A stretch of 64,000 nucleotides of DNA from positions 18,912,001 to 18,976,000 of the forward strand of contig NW_024704743.1 of the NCBI RefSeq assembly GCF_018977255.1. Direction: 5' to 3'. Shown here piece after piece: positions 1,417 through 60,597 of the stretch. The translations under genes were made by a program, and so were the position numbers. The stretch's first letter is position 1; every line of letters begins with the position of its first letter. The notes under the pieces are model-generated. The model had not been told where the DNA came from. It searched no databases and was given only the letters and a program-made list of their open reading frames with translations. Source of the DNA: Callorhinchus milii (Eukaryota).

Positions 1417-1727
1417 ATAATAATAATAATCCTTGCATTTGATATAGCGCTTTTCACGTCGGGAGGACGTCCCAAAGCGCTTCACACTGTAAAGTGAATT
1501 GACTATATTTGTGGGCGAACGCGGCAGCCAATTGCGCACAGCAATGTCCCACAAACAGTCGTGGATTGAAAATGACCAATTTATTATTGTTTTTGTTTTG
1601 GAGGGATTATTATTAGGCTCTGTGTGGAGTAAGGAAACTTGCCCAAGGTTTCGCCCTCTGCCTGGAATTGAACTCAGGTCTCTCACTTGTAAAGCGAGTG
1701 CTCTAAACACTGAGCTACAGGACTCCA
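1417..1727 (-). mobile_element. tRNA-derived SINE, family A, young subfamily with internal deletion
   Basis: Reverse complement shows A-box TAGCTCAGTGTTTAGAGC, B-box-like GAGTTCAATTCC, CCTTGGGCAAGTTTCCTTA central block, L2-like stem-loop tail and (ATT)n end; near-identical to 60598-60843. Confidence 0.9.
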
Positions 1728-6096: not shown

Positions 6097-6492
6097 AATA
6101 ATAATAATAATAAATAATAATAATAATCCTTGCATTTGGTATAGCTCCTTATCACGTCGAGACATCTCAAAGTGCTGCACAGGATATACTGTAAAGTGTA
6201 GTGACAGTGCACTTTATGTGTAAAATGCAGCAGCCAATTGCATACAGCAGTATCTCACAAACAGTCGTGGAGTGAGTGACCACATTATTAGGTTTATTTT
6301 GTTATTAGCCCTGGAAAGAGATCCACCAATCTACTAACAACCGGTTCCTACTTACTGCGAAGTAAACAGAGGCATGTGGAGGAAGGAAATTTGCTAAGGT
6401 TGTGCCCCGCCCGGGAATTGAACCCGGGTCTTGAACCTGGGTCCTCTCACTTGCGAGGTGAGTGCACTAACAACTCCCCTACGGTACTCCAC
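6097..6492 (-). mobile_element. SINE family A
   Basis: tRNA-like head at 6410-6490, central block and (ATT)n tail on the minus strand. Confidence 0.85.
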
Positions 6493-8709: not shown

Positions 8710-9063
8710 TATAATAATAATCCTTGGATTTGATAGAGCGCCTTATCACGTCTCGATTCACAGAATATAATGTAAAGTGATTTGACTGTGTATTTTGTGG
8801 GCGAAATGCAGCCGCCAATTGCACACAGCAGTGTCCCACAAACAGTTATGGATTGAGTGACCAAATTATTATTATTTTTGAAAGAATTATTACCCCCGAT
8901 AAAGCGATCCGCCAATCGACTAACAACCGGATTTCTACTTACTGCTAGGTAAACAAAAGTGTGTGGAATAAGGAAATGCGCCCAACATTTCACCCTATTG
9001 GGAATCGAACCCAGGTCTCTTGCTTGCGAGGCGAGTGTCCTAACCACTGAGCTACAGGACTCT
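8710..9063 (-). mobile_element. SINE family A, full length, inserted into a family-B SINE
   Basis: Complete head (TAGCTCAGTGGTTAGGAC...GGTTCGATTCC), body and tail; flanks 8600-8700 and 9085-9240 are collinear halves of a plus-strand Deu SINE. Confidence 0.9.
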
Positions 9064-15732: not shown

Positions 15733-16092
15733 ATAATAAACCTTGTATTTGATATAGCACATCATCACATCTTCGAGATGTCTGAAAGCGCTTCACAGAA
15801 TATACTGTAAGGTGAATTGACTGTACATTTTGTGGCGAAACGAGGCAGCCAATTGCGCACAGTAGTGTCCCACAAACAGTCATGGATTGAATGACCAAAT
15901 TATTATTATTTTTGAAGGGATTATTACCCCCCGGAAAAGCAATCCACCAATCGACTGACAACCATGTCTACTTACAGCTAGGTGAACAGGTGGAATAAGG
16001 AAACTTGTCTAATGTTTCACCCTGCCAGGAATTGATCCCAGGTCCTCTCGCTTGCAAGGCGAGTGCTCTAACCAGTAAGCTGCAGGACTCCA
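15733..16092 (-). mobile_element. SINE family A, full length
   Basis: Head, central block and tail are collinear with 8710-9063. Confidence 0.9.
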
Positions 16093-31405: not shown

Positions 31406-34400
31406 ACCTGACCGCTCGCTCCCGGTCCCCGCGTGCGCACTACGGCTGCCGCTTTGACCCGAGCCCCCTCAGCCCCTCCCTCCCTCCCGCCTCCTCTCTC
31501 CCCCCAAACCCTTCACCCTCTGCATCTCTCCCGCTCTGTCCTCCTCTCTCTCCGGCCCTCTTGCCTTCTATTCCCACTTGACCCTCCCACAACCTCCCTC
31601 TTTTCCAGCCTGGGAATCCTCCGCCGGGCTCACCGTGGCACTCGGCGTTGGCTGTCCAGCAGCAGCCACACCGACTGCCCCATTCCCCACTACACTCGCC
31701 AGCCACCCCGGACACAGACCCGGGGAGCCAACCTCTCCTCCCTCATCCCCATTCCCCCCACCCCTGCCTCACAACCTGGACCCCCCTCCCTCCCCACACA
31801 CCCTTCTGTCAACCGCTCCCTCCACATCGGACTACAAAACGTCCGCTCCCTCTGTAACAAGGCCCTGGTCATCAACGATCTCATCCTTGATGAGAGCGTT
31901 GATATCATGGCCTTAAAAGAAACCTGGCTCACCCCAGGCGACACCTTCCCCCTCACGGAGGCCACGCCACCCGGCTACACCTCCCACCACATCCCTCGCC
32001 CCAACCGCCGTGGCGGTGGTGTAGCCCTTATCTCAAGGACACCACTTGCCCTATCCCCCTACTCCTCTGGCTCTTTCCCCTCTTTCGAGCACCTCACCCT
32101 CTCCCACCCCTCCTTCCTCTCACTCAAAATCCTCCTCCTCTACCGGCCCTCCCACCTTCATCTCCGATTTTCGACACGTCTTACATCTCTCTGTCTCTGC
32201 TCTGATCGCCTCATCATCCTGGGCGACTTCAACCTGCACTTCACCCCCTCCTGCTCCATCTCCTCAGACTTCTCTTCCCTGCTCTCCTCGCTCAACCTCT
32301 CCCTCCACATCAACTCCCCCACTCACAGTCACGGCCACCCACTCGACTTGGTGATCACCCGGGGCCTCAGTGTCTCGGATGTCACCATTACCGACAAGGC
32401 CGTCTCCGACCACCACTTCATCTCCTTCACCACCTCCATCCCCCTCCCCACCTCCACCAGACCCACCACCATCTTCTACCGCCCCTGGAAGAAGTTACCC
32501 CCACAATCCCTAACCGCTGCCTTGGAGTCCTCTGAACTCCTCTCCCTCACTGACCCCTCTTCTCCTCTCACCCTCCTCCACAACACCCTCTCCTCCACAC
32601 TCGACACTCTTGCCCCCATCACCTCCCATACTGTCTCCTACTCTCGCTCCTCCCCCTGGTTCACCATCCACCTCCGCTCACTGAAGAGCCAGGTGCGGGC
32701 CGCTGAACGCACCTGTCAAATCTGGCCTAACGGTCCACCGACAAATCTGGCTGGACCTCCTCAAAATCTACCGCTCCACTCTAGCCTCGGCCAAGTCGTC
32801 CTTCTACTCCAGGATAATCCTGGAGGCGAAGAACAACCCCAGGCTACTGTTTTCTACCACATCCCGACTCCTCCGTCCCCCCCGCCACCCCGCGCAGGTC
32901 ATCTCCTCCAACCTTCACTGCGAGGAGATGCTGGATTTCCTTGAATCCAAAATCAAGGGAATCCGCTCCGCGGTCACTTCCCCTCCAACCTCCACCCACC
33001 CCACACCCCTTCCCTCCCACACTCCGACTCCTACCCATCCTCCCCTACACACCTTCGTACCCGTTTCCCCACCCTCTGTCACCAAACTCATCCTATCCCT
33101 GAAACCCACCACCTGCTCCCTTGACCCCATCCCCACTCCACTCCTTATCTCCCAGCTCCACCTTCTTGCCCCACATATCACAGACATCATCAACCTGTCC
33201 CTCTCCTCTGGCTCTGTTCCCATTCCCTTAAAAACTGCCACCATCACTCCCACTTTGAAAAAACCCTCCCTTGATGCGTCGCAGCTATCAAGCTACCGGC
33301 CCATCTCCAACCTCCCCTTCCTGTCCAAGGTCCTTGAAAGAGTTGTCGCCTCCCAGCTGCGCTCTTTCCTCTCCACCCATTCATTATTCGAACCCCTTCA
33401 GTCGGGTTTCCGTGCTGCCCATAGCACAGAAACTGCCCTGGTCAAGGTCACCAATGACATCCTGACCATCTGTGACCAGGGCTCCCTCTGCCTCCTCGTC
33501 CTCCTCGACCTATCGGCAGCATTCGATACGGTCGACCACGCTATCCTCCTCCACCGCTTGTCCTCCCACCTCAACCTTCAAGGCCCTGTCCTTGAGTGGT
33601 TTAGGTCGTACCTCTCCCACCGTCTTCATTTTGTTTCCACAAACGGCTTTTCCTCCAGTCCCCGCACTGTCTCATGTGGTGTCCCTCAGGGCTCTGTCCT
33701 CGGTCCCCTCCTCTTCACCCTCTCTATGCTCCCCCTTGGTGACATCATCCGCAGACATGGGGTTAACTTCCACATGTATGCGGATGACACCCAACTCTAC
33801 CTTTCCTCCTCTACCCTCAACTCCACGACCACCGATGTCCTGACAGCTGCCTGTCCGACATCGAGTCCTGGACGAGAGACAACTTTCTTCAGCTCAACGT
33901 GCGTAAAACTGAGGCCCTCCTGATTGGCTCACGTCAGCGCCTCCGCACCTCAGGCGCTGACAGCATCAGCATCCAAGGCTGCACTCTCCACCTCTCAAAG
34001 CCGGTCAGGAACCTCGGCGTTTTGTTCGACCCGGAGCTGTCCTTTCTCCCATATATCCGCACCACAACTGGCACCGCCTTCCATCACCTCCGGAACATCG
34101 CCAGACTACGGCACTACCTCACCCCTCACGCTGCTGAAACACTGGTCCACGCCTTTATCACCTCAAGGCTTGACTACGGGAACTCTCTCCTCGACGGCCT
34201 TCCCGGCACCTCCCTCCACAAGCTGCAGGTCATTCAGAACTCTGCAGCTCGTGTACTGTCCCGCACCAGGCTTCAGGACCACATCACTCCCACCCTCGCT
34301 CGCCTCCACTGGCTCCCCATCCCCCAGAGGATCGAATTCAAGATCCTCATCCTCACCTACAAGGCCATTCACGGCCTCGCTCCCTCCTACCTCTCCGACC

Positions 34401-34769
34401 TACTATCCCCCTACTTACCTGCCCGTACCCTCTGTTCCTCTGGCTCCGGTCTGCTCCACATCCCCCGCCCCAACCACCCTACCATCGGTGGCCGGGCCTT
34501 CAGCCTCTCAGCCCCGAGGCTCTGGAACTCCATCCCCCAGTGCCTTCGCCGCCTCCTCCCTTTCCTCCTTCAAGGCCGGTCTCAAGACCTTTCTCTTTGA
34601 CCGTGCCTTCAGCTCCCCTCTCGACTCTCAACCCCCTCCTCGCTCCCTCCCTTCCCTCCCCTCACCCTGACCATTTCCCCCCTGCTCGGGTCCTGACCCA
34701 ACTGTCCAGCGCCTTGGGACGTCCTCCCGACCTGAAAGGCGCTCTATAAATGGAATCTTGTTGTTGTTG
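31406..34769 (+). mobile_element. L2-clade LINE, near full length
   Basis: APE endonuclease and RT coding sequence, 3' stem-loop AGCGCCTTGGGACGTCCTCCCGACCTGAAAGGCGCT, (TTG)n tail; possible short TSD TATCC (31401-31405, 34772-34776). Confidence 0.95.
31433..34600 (+). pseudogene. Frameshifted L2 endonuclease/reverse transcriptase ORF
   Basis: EN motifs GLQNVRSL, LGDFNLH, GHPLDLV, SDHHFI; RT motifs [63 protein letters not shown]; frameshifts near 32716, 32890, 33850 and 34550. Confidence 0.93.
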
Positions 34770-40788: not shown

Positions 40789-43700
40789 GCGTACTCTATT
40801 AGCTTTGATGCTTGCAGTTAGTGCTGATGTCACGGATGATGGAATAAGCTGTAAAAACATTTCCTGCTTGTTTAGGGGGACATTAAAGATTCCACAGCCT
40901 CTATTCGATAAGAGGCAACAATTCTCCAGATAAATATGGTTATTCATTTCAAAGCTCTGGTGGGACTGTGTGCAAATTGGCTCTTTACAAAGACACAGTC
41001 ACTAGACTTTACGGTGAATCATGCAAAGGGTGTTGACATATTTTGAAGCTGCAATGGGGCGTTTTTTCAGACGCAAGGCTTATTATATGTACATGTGGCA
41101 GGACTGTGGATGTATTTTTCTGATAGTTTCAGTATACTTGAAAATAAAATAAATTGCAAGCTAAGGGGGAAGGAACGGGGGAGTGGGACTAATCAGATAG
41201 CTCTTTCAAAGAACCAGCAAAAACACGATGGACTGAATGGCTTTCTACTGTGCTGTAGGATTTTACGATTCAGGAACTGGGGAGCAATATTCCCAGAGAG
41301 ACTTATTTCCCCCTCCCCATTGGAATTTTCTTTATTTTGTTTGTAGACAATAACAGAGGAGTTTAGTTAGAATATAAGGTGGGAGGTGGATTGGGGGAAT
41401 TATCCCAGGAACGGACTATTGAGCATTATGCTCTGAGCTACTTCCGCTCCTTCCTTTCCACATACAAGTATCCTGTACAGTTCTATTCATTCAGTCCTCG
41501 TGTTTACTCAAGTATAACACAGCGCAGCCCCAGAATTCTAACAATTATAACAAAGCTGCACTGGACACCCTCATCACAATTCCCAGCCAGCGGGCTCCGA
41601 TCAAGTATTTTAATGGGTTTGAAAAGCTGAACGCCATCTGTAAGCACTTAGGGGTATTATGTAATGTGCGTTTTGCCCATATTGAGAGGGACAGATTCAA
41701 ATTAGGAAAATGCTTGGAATATACCAAACATCCAGAGACTCTGAAACATCTGAACTGATTTCCTACCTTTAGGAGTTTTTCACTGACCTCACTGAAATGA
41801 CCTACCAATACCGCCTAACTGTATTTTGTGAAGTGGCATTGATCAGAACAGAGATTGTGAGCAGAAACTAACTGCAGTATTTGATTATTTGCAATATGGC
41901 ATGTAATAGCTATTTTTTGATGCAATGCATGTGACATGGGAACATGGGAATGCACAGGACCAGAAAAGCCCTTTTGGGTCCATCTGGCTGATCGCAGACT
42001 TTGAGAGAGTGGGAACAGCTTAAATAGGATGAAAAATGTGTATTATTTTTAACAGATTCGGTGGAGTGTCAAAGCTATAGTCAGAGTACAGGCTGACATA
42101 ACATGGCGGGTTGGGGCCATAAAATCAGACCCCAATATAGCTGTTTCCCTTTCATTTGCTGAAAGGTTGTTGAAATTGTTGTTGTTTCAACAATTGAATC
42201 ATCACAATTGATGAGCTGGTGCTTTTTTTCCAATAAAACATTGTAAAAATGATTTCTAGTAAATTGGTATTTTAAAACTGGTTGCACTACAAGTGTGAGA
42301 ATCGATCAGTCGGGGTCAAACGGAAGATATTTTCCCCTTGTCTCCTTACCAAGGATAGATTTTAATGCTAAAATCATCCATTTAATGTATTAGAACTGTG
42401 CTAATGAACAAAGAAAGGAATGAAAGCAAACGTTTTCAGATTATGACCTTGGTAACCTTGATGATAAGTAATGAGCTTTAATTCATACTGTCAAGTCCTT
42501 GATATCACCAGAGAGCAGTTTAGATTAACAGAATAAATTAGTGACCCCCAAATTCCACCTAGTCTGATAATGTACCACTATTTCATGCTAAGATTTTAGA
42601 AATAGGGGAAAATTCTTAAACGACTTGAATTGGAAGGAAGCCTGACAGAAAACAGGCTTCCAAATTCATATTTAATTTGAAAAGTTTTCACAATTTTGCA
42701 TAATCTTGAATTTTAAAACATATTATTAATTACATATATTAATTTTATGTTTATATATTCTGTATCACTATATGTTAATTTCCTATTATTAATTATATTT
42801 GCCTACAGTCACTACACTCTACAGTAAATCCTGTCAAGCACTTTGAGAAACCAACTTACCAACGTGAAAGGTGTTATATCAAATCCAAGGATGATTTTTA
42901 TCATATATTGTAATAATAATACTTGTATTTGATATAGCGCCTTATCATGTTATTGAGATGTCTCAAAACGCTGCTTAGGATTTAGTATAGTGACTGTATA
43001 TTTTGTAGGCGAACACAGTAATTGGCAGCTAATTTGCACACAGGAATGTGCCACAAACAGTCATGATGTGAACGATTAATTTTATCTGAGAGTTATGTAA
43101 TTAATAATAGTTTTCAAATTTGAAAATCACATGACACTGTGGAAACCTTTTAAATTCAATTCAAATTTGGGGCCTGTTTTTTGCCATTCTTAAAAGAGAG
43201 CAGGCTCCCACTCTTCCTTAAATTTTAGGACGAAACAGGCATACATTGTCACATTGGGTGGGCACCAGGAGAAACTCCCTTCTTTTTTCGATTAGAGCCA
43301 GGATCTTTAAAACATTCACGTGAACAGACCTAAGTATGATGATGCAGCCCACCCCAGCCCTGCACAAACAAACAAACAAACAAACAAACAAACAAATAAA
43401 CAGTATTTCGGAGGAAGTTTGATGCACACATGAGGCAGAAGAGAACAGAATGGTATGGGAATGTTGATGAGGAGGAACATAGGCTTAGGCGGAGTATAAT
43501 GACTGAGCAGACAAGTTGGGCCAAATTACTTGTTTCCATATTATAACATATTTTGCCATTGTTATTCTGTGTAAGACAAAGAGATCTTAGAGCTACAACT
43601 GTGTGAAATGTTGAGTCTCCAGAACGATACAGAAAGCAGGGTGCTTGACCTTTAATTGCCTGGTGACAGGGGCATGATGCAAAGCCAGATTTTTTGCCCT

Positions 43701-45172
43701 GTGGGTTAGAAGGAAAGACACAATTTCCATGTGTAGGTGGGGTGAATGGAATTTTCAGTTTTGGTCTGGATACTCTTAAACATGGTGATGGGTCTCTGCC
43801 CGCATGTGTCGGACTCCCAGCTGACCAAAAATAAAGGAAAGATAGTGAACTTCCAGCACGCTCGATAGTGATGGGTTGAACATTAGCAAAGACAGTGTTG
43901 ACCAGCTTACCAGGGCAATATGGAGTGCACAACTCTGTAAGGAGCCAAAACGAAAGAGGTGTTTTACTGTCAACTTGCAGACCTTTCTGTTTTTAAAATC
44001 AATCCATAATAGAATGTCAAGAGAGGATTTCCTGACAGTGCAGAAATCACTGTATTGTTTCATACGGGAATGCAATTTTCCAGGTTTAATTTTTTTTACA
44101 TAACTTTGTGATCACAAAATCAAGTCAAGGGTGTAAAATTCAGCCCACGGTACAGTTAGTCAGTCACGTTTCTTGGATTCTCCTGTTGATTTGTTAATGT
44201 TAGCAATGTTAGCAAACTCTCTTCAAGGTGAGATTTCCACACGGCACCTGCTGAATAGGCTAAGCCTGTCACAGACAAAACTGAATGCAGGCAGCAACAG
44301 GGATGTGAAACGAGTGTCCTAGCCACTGCGTTTCCACACTGCTTCAATTCAGCTTATGAAAAACAAACGCTACATATTTAATTGCAGTATTAGCCTTGAG
44401 CAGGCATCCTTGTTTACAAATTAGCATGCAGTGAGTGCCATGTGCTCCTGTGTGTTACCCATGGAGTTCTATTCACGTCTGCAGCTTTAGCTGTCCTTGG
44501 GATTTCTAATGCACATCAGGAAATGCATTGCTGCTGTTCTCAGGGAACAAGTCATAAGGACACACAGCGTTTCAGACCAGACTTAATGTGAAACACGTAC
44601 AGCACAGCAGCTGACACTTTGGAGGGTGGCTCAGTGGTCCAGAGTGAATTAGGTCCAGGCTTAATCATATCTTTAGGCTGGAATGGGGACAGATGACGGA
44701 TAGATCAGGACAGTGTGGTACAAAGATGACACTGAATCAAGGATGCTGCTCATAATTTGTGGATTGTGAGGTGCACCGTAGTAGCAGGAGACCTTGAACG
44801 TATCTAGTTACTGTAGGTGCATTGAGCTGGTAAAGGAAGATTTGTCCAGCACTGAGAATTTCAAGGTTTAACGAAAGACTGTGAGATAAGTAGCATGGAT
44901 CAACTGCAAGGTTCACTCAAAAACTAAAGATGCCAAAATCCGTCTCCTAAAAATGCATGTTCAACTTAGTCAGAAGAGATTGATCTACTTCAAGGGAAAA
45001 GGACTCATCTGTTTTCAAGACTGGCCATGAAAGCTGTGGGGCGAGAGCTCTACCTTCTTCTTGATTCTTGCAGGGAAAGAAGGAAACAACATGGACAGTG
45101 GTTCACATGAGTACATGGTAACGATTAAGGCTCTGCGAGGCTGCTTGCTGTTTGCTTTCTGCTGCCCTCTTA

Positions 45173-45220
45173 ATGCAGTGCTGTGGGCTGGGACATCGAC
45201 GGCGAGTACAGGTTTCCTAT
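45173..45220 (+). CDS. CACNB2: Voltage-gated calcium channel beta-2 subunit, beta2a-specific N-terminal exon (MQCCGLGHRRRVQVSY)
   Basis: ATG at 45173, 16 codons, phase-0 end and consensus donor GTAAGT (45221-45226); in-frame upstream stop TAA at 45119-45121; 14 of 16 residues match the recalled mammalian beta2a N-terminus MQCCGLVHRRRVRVSY, including the palmitoylated Cys3-Cys4. Confidence 0.93.
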
Positions 45221-46258
45221 GTAAGTCTCCTGATCTCTGTGTAAATCTCTTTATTACTGGAACAGTGTCATCCTTCTTACTGGCTTATCACTAATCTGAG
45301 ACATTGCACGATAATGCAGTATTAATTACAGTGTATGATTCTCTTTAAATGTTTTAACTTGTACTGTGCCAAGCACTTCTGGTGCACATTTGCCATTCAG
45401 AAAGTGTGAACATTGTGGTTGGCTTCTCAAGGATTTCACTTTAATATACTGTACTTGATCCTATTTAACAAGTGAGGACAGGCAAGGTCAAATGTAGATT
45501 TTATCTCAATTATAGCCATCACACGGGCACTGTGTAACATGCATGGTGTAACATGCTCGACGAACAATGAAGCTTGTATGTTTTCTTTTGCAGTGCAATT
45601 CCTTTCGGTAATAACTCATTGGTCTAGTGTAGCGACTGATGCATCAGGGGGAGGTAGCTTACAAAGTCTGTCTCTGCCTGGGTGTCCAGCAACAGTAGAT
45701 TGTATTGATTGAAACTAAAGTCTCTGGTGAATTCTCCACACAGGGAACATCAGCTGATAAACGACAGTGACGATTAAATAGTAAACTGAAAACTAGCCAA
45801 CTCGCAAACTACTCAGATATTGCCACCAAAAACTTCATACGTTGTTCACAGAAACTTATTAGTCAAAAAGAAATTAATCAGTGCTTATTTTATGTCCTAA
45901 ATCCTTCCATTACATTTTTATCAACATGTATAAAGTATAACCTATTTGTGTTCTATATTTCATGTATACAATAATAATATGATAATAATCCTTGCATTTG
46001 ATATAGCGCCTTATCACAACTTCGAGACGTTTCAAAGTGCTTCACAGAATATACTGTAAAGTGTAGTGACTGTATATTTTGTGGGCTAAACGCAGAAGCC
46101 GATTGCACACAGCAACGTCCCACAAAAAGGCATGGATTGAGTGACTTGTTAAAAAAAATTATTTGGCTATAAAACGTGTCAAAGAAGCTAATAAGTATAG
46201 TCCATTTTAAAAATTTTAATATATTCTTTAAACAAAAGCATTCTTCTTGAATTCTAAG

Positions 46259-46851
46259 GGAGAGAAATTCCACCCGGTTTATCAGATTTATTTGGTTTAT
46301 GTAGCATTTCAGAGCTTGCAGAATTTGGCAAATTGTTGAATTCAGTCTTAAATTTGAAGGTGTTTTTCTGTAGTTCTTAAAAAGAAACTTACAGTTCAAA
46401 CCAGCTTAAAAATTCAGGCTGTCTAAGCAATTTGCCAAATTCTTGGCATCTGAAATGTAGCGTGCTCGTCTCGCAAGAGAGAGGATCGGGGTTCAATTTA
46501 CTAGTGGGGCGAAGCCTTAGGTAAGTTTCCTTACTCCACACACTAGCAGTAAGTAAGAACCCAGTTGTTACTTGATTGGATGATCGCTTTTCCAGGGGTA
46601 ATAATCCCTCAAAAAAACTATCCAGGGGTAATAATCCCTCAAAAAAATCCATGACTGTTTGGGGGACCGTGCTGTGCACAATTGGCTGACGCATTTCACC
46701 CACAAAAATACACAGTCAATCCATTTTACAATATATTCTGTGAAGCGCTTTGAGATGTCTCAACCACATGATCAGGCGTTATATCAAGGATTGTTATTAT
46801 TATTATAAAGGAATAATAATAATAATCTAGACCCAGGTGAAATTTTTACCC
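46259..46851. mobile_element. Palindromic MITE-like element with a nested SINE A (46457-46806, +)
   Basis: Ends GGAGAGAAATTCCACCCGG and CTAGACCCAGGTGAAATTTTTACC resemble 18747-18972; the SINE carries a tandem duplication with 30-bp period (46591-46647). Confidence 0.6.
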
Positions 46852-58965: not shown

Positions 58966-60597
58966 GAGATCCAAGCGCCCACGACATTATTATTTAGAGA
59001 TATTAAAGCACCGGCCATTGATTCTAAATATTTTGCCAAGATTTAATAAATACAGATCTGTCCCTGTGATCCCTGAACACAGTTGAATATTCAAGCCCAA
59101 TCGGCCGAATGTTCCTGAATTCTTATTTTCCTAATCCCTTTTTCTGCTTCTAAAGCACTATACCTGACAGGAGCAGAACTGAAAGTGGATCAATTATTCC
59201 ACAAAGTGCAACAAACACCTGACCTTTCCTCAACTCCACTCATTGTAAATGAGCATTGGATTTTTTATTTAACCCTAACTTTGCTACTTGAAACCAATAC
59301 CAAAAGCATAACAACAATAACTTGCATTTATATAGTGCCTTTTATGTAAAAAAATAAATACTATATCTCAAAGCACTTTACACAATAGAATGAAACACAA
59401 TTAAGTGATTGTTTTGTAGCATTGTGTCACAAGGTGTATTTATTTACGATTTTCTATTGAAAGAATCGTATATGATGCAAGTTATAGGCTGTTCTATGGA
59501 TCTATGCTTGTGGTGTATTAACACAGTCCTGTGCTCGCTTAAGCGAAGCATCGTTCAGGACTTGACGTTTCCTACAGGAGGAAGGTGATATCATAGGAAC
59601 AGTCACCAGATGGTTATTCAATTGCAACCTTAAAGGTCTGATGATCTCCTGAAAAGAGGAGCAAAATCAGATAAAATACAGGTAAAATACAGGGAATACA
59701 TTTGAACATATTTTATATCAGAATCCTGTAGCTCAATGGTTACAGCACTTGCAAGTGAGAGGGCCTGGGTTTGATTCCCGGCAGGTCGAAACGTAGGGCA
59801 AGTTTCCTTACTCCACACACCTCTGTTTACCTAGCAGTAAGTAGGAACCGGTTGTTAGTCGATTGGCGGATCGCTTTTCTGGGGGTAATAATTCTTTCAA
59901 AATAAAAATATATAACATTCTCACAAGTGGATGTAAGTCCACATTCAGGGCAGTCATATGCCATGGCACTAACGTACAGGGTGTAATGCAAATAATACTC
60001 CTTACATTTGATAAACCGACTTTCACATCAGGGAGGACATCACAGGATAAACTGTAAAGTGAATGTATTTGTAAGCGAATGTAACATGCCAGGACAGTAA
60101 TGTGACACTATTTCTCTAACAGTGAGGTTGATAAAGAGCTTTTTTTTGGTAAAACTGCAGCATAAAAGGTACCCAGCCAGGAAAAGTGCCTCTGACTGTA
60201 GTAAAGCTGAAGACTCCGAGTCCTGAGAACTCAGCTCTGAAATGACCTCAGGTCCCTGTGAGTTATTATGGGTTGTCATGACGTGGTTAAGGTTCCTGCT
60301 GGAGATTCACTATCGGGGGACTTTGTCAAGTGCAAGGTGTCATTAATTCTGCCGTTTTCCCAATTACACTTGTAGTACTGTTTAAACCTCATTCTGCCGT
60401 ATTGACTGGTCAGCCTCCTGTTTACAACCTCCAGGGACATTTATAGACTCCTCTTATAATCTTACTACCTTTCCGCCCCGACCCACAGTTCTCATCAAGG
60501 ACTGAAATCTCAGTCTCTGATCCTCACCTTCCCCTCCACAGACTGTTAAGACAACACATTCTGTCACCAAGCTGCCTATTGGTGAGAAAGGCAGGTC

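What the first reader, a model, noticed from the sequence alone, without database searches (positions are those of the whole stretch)
45173..45226. Hidden 16-codon CACNB2 beta2a exon with the palmitoylation di-cysteine, in a probable cartilaginous fish
Seen: ATG CAG TGC TGT GGG CTG GGA CAT CGA CGG CGA GTA CAG GTT TCC TAT|GTAAGT, too short for the ORF track. Established: mammalian CaV beta2a begins MQCCGLVHRRRVRVSY, and palmitoylation of Cys3/Cys4 anchors it to the membrane and slows channel inactivation. Inference: this regulatory isoform dates back at least to the jawed-vertebrate ancestor, with two substitutions here (V7G, R13Q), and the window lies in the large 5' region of CACNB2.
Basis: partly seen in the sequence, partly recalled or inferred. 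Interest (0 to 1): 0.75.

Follow-up and report, generated by a model that had tools for sequence, protein, structure and literature searches.

The report
Chimaera calcium-channel beta-2a start exon
This short stretch of elephant-shark-type DNA matches the known start exon of the fat-anchored beta-2a helper subunit of calcium channels, so that form likely goes back to the ancestor of all jawed vertebrates, a modest extension of what was already known from zebrafish and mammals.

Summary
The exon is real: ATG at 45173, 16 codons (MQCCGLGHRRRVQVSY), GTAAGT donor at 45221. It matches the printed mouse CaVβ2a N-terminus at 12 of 14 residues and zebrafish β2.2 exon 1 at 11 of 16. A collection scan returned one tetrapod-type orthologue (L001): 44 of 48 bases identical, same donor, plus two conserved upstream non-coding blocks (44548-44790, 44962-45172). 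A LINE in the window is 93-97% identical to Callorhinchus milii entries, so the host is the elephant shark or a close chimaera. One correction: G7 and Q13 are shared with zebrafish, so they are likely ancestral, and V7/R13 likely arose on the tetrapod side. Splicing to the CACNB2 core and palmitoylation are inferred, not shown; the core lies outside the window. The teleost orthologue was published in 2008, so this is a new member of a known kind. Weak side leads: a shared strong-context upstream ATG, and 7 of 7 free fourfold sites identical to L001.

The parts
45173..45220 (+). Coding part of the β2a-type alternative first exon, 16 codons
   Evidence: 14 of 16 residues and 44 of 48 bases identical to L001; 12 of 14 to printed mouse β2a; 11 of 16 to printed zebrafish β2.2 exon 1
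45179..45184 (+). Cys3-Cys4 codons, predicted S-palmitoylation site
   Evidence: sequence; Cys3/4 named as the acylated residues of mammalian β2a in PMC9409123 and PMC9662827; acylation here is inferred
45194..45205 (+). His-Arg-Arg-Arg basic patch after the cysteines
   Evidence: sequence; identical residues in L001; 3 basic and 0 acidic residues in the 16-mer against 4 and 0 in L001
45221..45226 (+). 5' splice donor GTAAGT, phase 0
   Evidence: best U1 match of 130 GT sites nearby; identical in L001, and the alignment ends right after it
44962..45172 (+). Proximal conserved non-coding block, likely 5' UTR of the exon
   Evidence: about 68% identity to L001 over 206 columns; local score 93 against a null maximum of 41 in 292 random window stretches
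44548..44790 (+). Distal conserved non-coding block, likely the β2a promoter or the start of the 5' UTR
   Evidence: 66% identity over 261 columns, E 1e-21; local score 161 against a null maximum of 38 in 296 stretches
45091..45093 (+). Upstream ATG in strong context, out of frame with the main ATG; aligned to an ATG in L001; function untested
45119..45121 (+). In-frame stop upstream of the main ATG, which fixes 45173 as the N-terminus

Best explanation
45173-45220 is an intact 16-codon exon with a GTAAGT donor that matches the first coding exon of the CACNB2 β2a isoform; it likely splices to the shared core exon far downstream, and its Cys3/Cys4 are predicted to be palmitoylated, which would tether the β subunit to the membrane and slow calcium-channel inactivation. 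Steps: (1) shown: exon anatomy, orthology of exon, donor and two upstream blocks to L001, chimaera host. (2) Inferred: the conserved block at 44548-44790 drives an isoform-specific transcript whose 5' UTR runs through 44962-45172. (3) Inferred from PMC2365960: the phase-0 donor joins the exon beginning GSAD across a very long intron. (4) Inferred from mammalian work: a zDHHC enzyme acylates Cys3/Cys4, aided by the Arg patch; the lipid anchor slows voltage-dependent inactivation and lowers PIP2 sensitivity of CaV1/CaV2 channels. (5) Inferred by parsimony: the isoform existed in the last common ancestor of jawed vertebrates with G7 and Q13.
For: Motif match far beyond chance. Printed mouse residues 1-14 match at 12 of 14; printed zebrafish β2.2 exon 1, which the paper calls β2a-like and detected by RT-PCR in adult heart, matches at 11 of 16 and has the same length. 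L001 has the mouse-type peptide, the same donor and 44 of 48 identical bases. Similarity to L001 extends upstream in two blocks (z 38.8 and 19.2) but not into the intron (z 1.5), the gap between the blocks (z -0.9) or further upstream (z -0.4), as expected for promoter, UTR and exon. Host: the first 11 of 120 listed hits of the LINE ORF are Callorhinchus milii entries, nine of them 93-97% identical; no hit outside that species exceeds 56%. Mechanism in mammals: PMC9662827 and PMC9409123 passages. Human 5' introns of 60-100 kb explain why no core exon is in the 18.8 kb downstream.
Against: Only one outside orthologue was obtained, and its host class was not established by a tool. The main ATG is in a weak context and an out-of-frame upstream ATG overlaps it in the window, which could lower output of this isoform. 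The polarity argument rests on one teleost sequence from a fast-evolving paralogue. No acylation or kinetic data exist for a chondrichthyan β2 in the papers seen.
Confidence: 0.9

Rival explanations
1. The exon is orthologous but no longer used in this lineage: a relic first exon, or one whose translation is effectively shut off by the overlapping upstream ORF.
For: The ORF from 45091 is in strong context and open through the donor (130 bases, no stop), whereas in L001 it stops 34 bases before the main ATG.
Against: Frame, both cysteines, donor and both upstream blocks are intact, with 44 of 48 coding bases shared with L001; an unused exon would be expected to have decayed.
Confidence: 0.04
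2. The segment is also or mainly an internal cassette exon (45074-45220) spliced into longer CACNB2 transcripts; the in-frame TAA would make it a poison exon or allow re-initiation at the β2a ATG.
For: A pyrimidine-rich AG at 45072-45073 (15 of 18 pyrimidines) lies in frame with the ATG, with a TAA in between.
Against: Such sites occur at 0.89 per kb in this window, so one in 700 bases is expected; the AG is not kept at the aligned place in L001; similarity to L001 continues upstream of the site.
Confidence: 0.04
3. The exon belongs to another CACNB paralogue or a duplicate copy rather than to CACNB2.
For: The core exons could not be read, so gene identity is not shown by my own calls.
Against: In the passages seen, the di-cysteine N-terminus is described only for β2a; unchecked earlier notes place CACNB2 exons and then NSUN6 downstream on the same piece.
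Confidence: 0.02

Closest known systems
Mammalian CaVβ2a N-terminus (Cacnb2, mouse Q8CC27 as printed in PMC4035745 Table 2)
   Same: 12 of 14 printed residues, Cys3/Cys4, Arg patch
   Different: G7 and Q13 instead of V7 and R13; one basic residue fewer; acylation shown in mammals, untested here
Zebrafish β2.2 (cacnb2b) exon 1, transcript variant 1 (Ebert et al. 2008, PMC2365960)
   Same: 16 codons, 11 of 16 residues including C3, C4, G7, Q13, Y16; short ATG-containing 5' exon followed by a large intron
   Different: differs at positions 2, 9, 12, 14, 15; lies in a fast-evolving teleost duplicate; cloned and shown expressed, unlike the window's exon
L001 orthologous locus (tetrapod-type, unnamed host)
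   Same: 44 of 48 coding bases, donor, two upstream non-coding blocks, upstream ATG in the same out-of-frame register
   Different: V7/R13; its upstream ORF stops before the main ATG; an AGC repeat follows the distal block
CaVβ2e N-terminus
   Same: short alternative first exon of the same gene that anchors the subunit at the membrane (PMC9662827)
   Different: anchors by electrostatic binding, not by palmitate; no β2e-like motif was found in the window (recalled motifs)

Membership tests
CACNB2 β2a first coding exon | N-terminal Met followed by Cys3-Cys4 | tested here: met
CACNB2 β2a first coding exon | Sequence similarity to known β2a N-termini beyond chance | tested here: met
CACNB2 β2a first coding exon | 16-codon coding part ending in a phase-0 donor | tested here: met
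   same length as zebrafish exon 1 and L001
CACNB2 β2a first coding exon | Orthologous upstream promoter/UTR sequence | tested here: met
   two blocks conserved with L001; one comparison only
CACNB2 β2a first coding exon | Lies upstream of CACNB2 core exons on the same strand | not testable with these tools
   no genome held; core not in window; unchecked notes e1-9851385 and e1-8166134 agree
CACNB2 β2a first coding exon | Spliced to the GSAD core exon in mRNA | tested here: inconclusive
   see Tried and rejected
CACNB2 β2a first coding exon | Cys3/Cys4 S-acylated; slows inactivation | not testable with these tools
   needs acyl-exchange chemistry and electrophysiology
Holocephalan host (Callorhinchus) | Young lineage-specific repeats match that species | tested here: met
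   LINE RT ORF 93-97% to nine C. milii entries, at most 56% to other hosts; a close relative is not excluded
Conserved regulatory uORF | Upstream ATG conserved beyond the background identity of the UTR | tested here: inconclusive
   1 of 3 proximal upstream ATGs shared with L001; a shared run of 10 or more bases has P 0.43 under shuffling

The most novel reading that the evidence does not exclude
β2a output has been held down for some 450 million years by a translational brake: a strong-context upstream ATG (45091) placed out of frame before a weak-context main ATG, overlapping the β2a start in the chimaera and ending short of it in the tetrapod-type locus. The coding exon would also carry a nucleotide-level regulatory element, as 7 of 7 free fourfold-degenerate sites are identical between the two. 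Dose control of this strongly current-prolonging isoform would then be written into its own 5' UTR.
Probability: 0.15. Interest if true: 0.5.

Novelty: new member of a known kind. Interest (0 to 1): 0.22.

Why it matters
It likely pushes the palmitoylated β2a isoform and its promoter from the bony-fish ancestor (known since 2008) back to the jawed-vertebrate ancestor, and it flips the direction of two residue changes. The two conserved non-coding blocks are concrete candidates for the isoform-specific regulatory sequence that Ebert et al. proposed. β2 is expressed in fish electroreceptor organs (paddlefish, catshark), so which β2 start exon is used there can now be asked with a defined sequence. 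None of this is a new mechanism.

Tried and rejected
RNA evidence: no RNA holder listed for 43500-46500 (8 of 24 rows hold the stretch, none on record as RNA; the stretch was long for a small exon). Contigs of one probable DNA run and three probable RNA runs (3 of 8 RNA-labelled rows) were laid on 43410-45950. None covers the exon, but neither does the DNA control, which holds 77% of the stretch's words, so the lay is blind there and says nothing on expression. Only one lay was obtained. Protein searches with the read-through peptide found nothing: solved structures 0 hits, large protein set 0 of 26 candidates, Atlas no usable hit. They are too insensitive: the L001 peptide inside a 600-residue frame scores E about 50. 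The attempt to name L001's host class from a repeat-derived frame found no candidate. No RNA structure over UTR and exon: z 0.78, -0.36, 1.27, 1.40 for 4 of 4 folds. Rfam gave 4 tRNA-like hits, none near the exon. Short motifs for other CACNB2 exons (mostly recalled) gave no credible hit in six frames. Of 27 ATG-to-GTRAG candidates on the + strand only 45173 resembled a known CACNB2 start, judged by eye. The acceptor-like site at 45073 was rejected as chance-level and not conserved. Transcription-factor motif matches were not pursued. The β2i paper (Seitter 2023) was not held. The five supplements and the figures of PMC2365960 could not be seen; its Fig. 3 aligns β2a-type exons of more species and bears on the polarity of residues 7 and 13.

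Full report
Observation. The quoted sequence is at the stated place and translates MQCCGLGHRRRVQVSY. The coding part is 45173-45220 and the donor GTAAGT is 45221-45226, in phase 0. The frame has a TAA at 45119-45121 and no in-frame ATG between it and 45173, so the two cysteines would be residues 3 and 4 of a protein.

Chance. I took the 8 positions shared by two printed peptides, mouse β2a residues 1-14 (PMC4035745 Table 2) and zebrafish β2.2 exon 1 (PMC2365960 Results). All 8 match at one of 127,996 six-frame positions; the next best 2 positions match 5. The expected number is 1.8e-6 per window, and 100 Markov-simulated windows reached at most 6 of 8. The donor is the best U1-complement match of 130 GT sites within 44-46 kb.

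Host. The window holds a near-complete LINE at about 31.4-34.7 kb. Its RT frame was searched: the first 11 of 120 listed hits are Callorhinchus milii entries, nine at 93-97% identity, and 18 of 120 are from that species; no other hit exceeds 56%. The host is therefore the elephant shark or a close chimaera. Earlier notes on this genome say the same (unchecked).

Orthologue. One scan of the metagenome collection with a degenerate pattern returned 1 locus, L001. It encodes MQCCGLVHRRRVRVSY followed by GTAAGT; its first 14 residues equal the printed mouse ones, so I call it tetrapod-type. Its repeats look avian to me from recall, but a tool test gave nothing. Exon identity with the window is 44 of 48 bases. 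Two non-coding blocks also align: 44548-44790 (66%, E 1e-21) and 44962-45172 (about 68%). Against random window stretches their local scores are 161 (null maximum 38, n 296) and 93 (null maximum 41, n 292), while the gap between them, the intron and the DNA further upstream score within the null. Conservation that ends at the donor and extends about 630 bases upstream is what a promoter plus first exon should give. That the blocks are promoter and UTR is inference.

Polarity of the two differences. Window against zebrafish: 11 of 16 identical, including G7 and Q13. Mouse and L001 have V7 and R13. With a chimaera and a teleost on one side, parsimony makes G7/Q13 ancestral for jawed vertebrates and V7/R13 derived on the lobe-finned or tetrapod side. 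Caveats: one teleost sequence, from a paralogue the paper calls highly divergent; its Fig. 3 and supplements, which align more species, could not be seen.

Gene context. No CACNB2 core motif is in the window (mostly recalled motifs) and no genome is held. This is expected: in human, three introns of 60-100 kb separate the 5' exons, and all splice to an exon beginning GSAD. Unchecked earlier notes put another CACNB2 start exon 59.6 kb, a CACNB2 C-terminal exon 117 kb and NSUN6-linked genes 131 kb beyond the window end. That order fits a + strand CACNB2, but I did not test it. Use of the donor remains open (see Tried and rejected).

How it likely works. Shown: anatomy, orthology, host. Inferred: own promoter, splice to the GSAD exon, S-acylation of Cys3/Cys4. 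In mammals the Cys-to-Ser mutant is cytosolic, and membrane-anchored β2 gives slow inactivation and low PIP2 sensitivity of CaV2.2 (PMC9662827 passages; PMC9409123 passages). Invertebrate β subunits lack this site (PMC3972191 passages), so the exon arose in the vertebrate line, likely at or before the jawed-vertebrate ancestor. The chimaera peptide has one arginine fewer than L001; zebrafish tolerates more change, so I expect little functional effect.

Side leads. (a) An upstream ATG at 45091 has a purine at -3 and G at +4, aligns to an ATG in L001 in the same out-of-frame register (82 and 79 bases before the main ATG), and the main ATG is in a weak context in both. The ORF is open through the donor in the window but stops after 14 codons in L001. 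Against: only 1 of 3 proximal upstream ATGs is shared, and a shared run of 10 or more bases has P 0.43 at this identity; it is not known whether 45091 is transcribed. (b) Among third positions not fixed by the search pattern, 7 of 7 fourfold and 3 of 4 twofold sites are identical to L001; P is 0.008 if the baseline is 50% and 0.067 if 68%. The baseline is assumed, not measured, and L001 was found by a pattern made from the window. No RNA structure explains it.

What is known. The β2a-like exon of teleosts was cloned in 2008 (PMC2365960: abstract, Results and Discussion read). Searches listed no paper whose title, abstract start or read passages describe this exon in a cartilaginous fish, and none on a β2a uORF; most listed papers were seen as listings only. 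The library lacks most subscription journals, and genome annotation databases could not be queried, so shark β2a isoforms may already be annotated. β2 expression in electroreceptor organs is from passages of PMC5429088 and PMC11979771, without isoform detail. Chien 1996 and Qin 1998 were seen only as citations. The scan's own notes hold nothing on this exon.

Verdict. Real, correctly identified, ordinary: a new member of a known kind, interest 0.22. The most novel reading left open, an ancient uORF brake with nucleotide-level constraint on the exon, has probability about 0.15.

Noticed in passing
window 45091-45220; L001 4922-4966: Upstream ATG in strong context shared with L001 in the same out-of-frame register; it overlaps the β2a start in the window but not in L001. 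Not beyond chance with two sequences.
   Followed up: partly
window 45173-45220: 7 of 7 free fourfold-degenerate third positions are identical to L001, which suggests constraint beyond the protein; baseline not calibrated.
   Followed up: partly
window 45046-45073: Pyrimidine-rich tract ending in AG, in frame with the ATG but with a stop between; chance-level frequency, AG not kept in L001.
   Followed up: partly
window 31412-34749: Near-complete LINE (L2-like by recall) with endonuclease-like and RT frames split by frameshifts, 93-97% identical to C. milii RT entries; it explains the GC-rich, C-skewed stretch.
   Followed up: partly
window 1658-1720, 6402-6487, 8990-9061, 16017-16089, 59725-59785: tRNA-like hits (Rfam, ARAGORN; two called tRNA-Ala) inside multi-copy repeats, likely SINE heads; about 31% of the window is self-repeating.
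   Followed up: no
window 43330-45958: Second-longest stretch free of within-window repeats, containing the exon and both conserved blocks; one search shows one dispersed repeat inside it at 43722-43800.
   Followed up: partly
window 44586-44599, 44638-44650, 44971-44984: Exact words of 13-14 bases shared with L001 inside the conserved blocks, candidate transcription-factor sites (homeodomain-, E-box- and RCGTG-like motifs lie in or near them; labels recalled).
   Followed up: no
L001 4502-4553: An AGC repeat of about 17 units directly after the distal conserved block, absent from the window.
   Followed up: no
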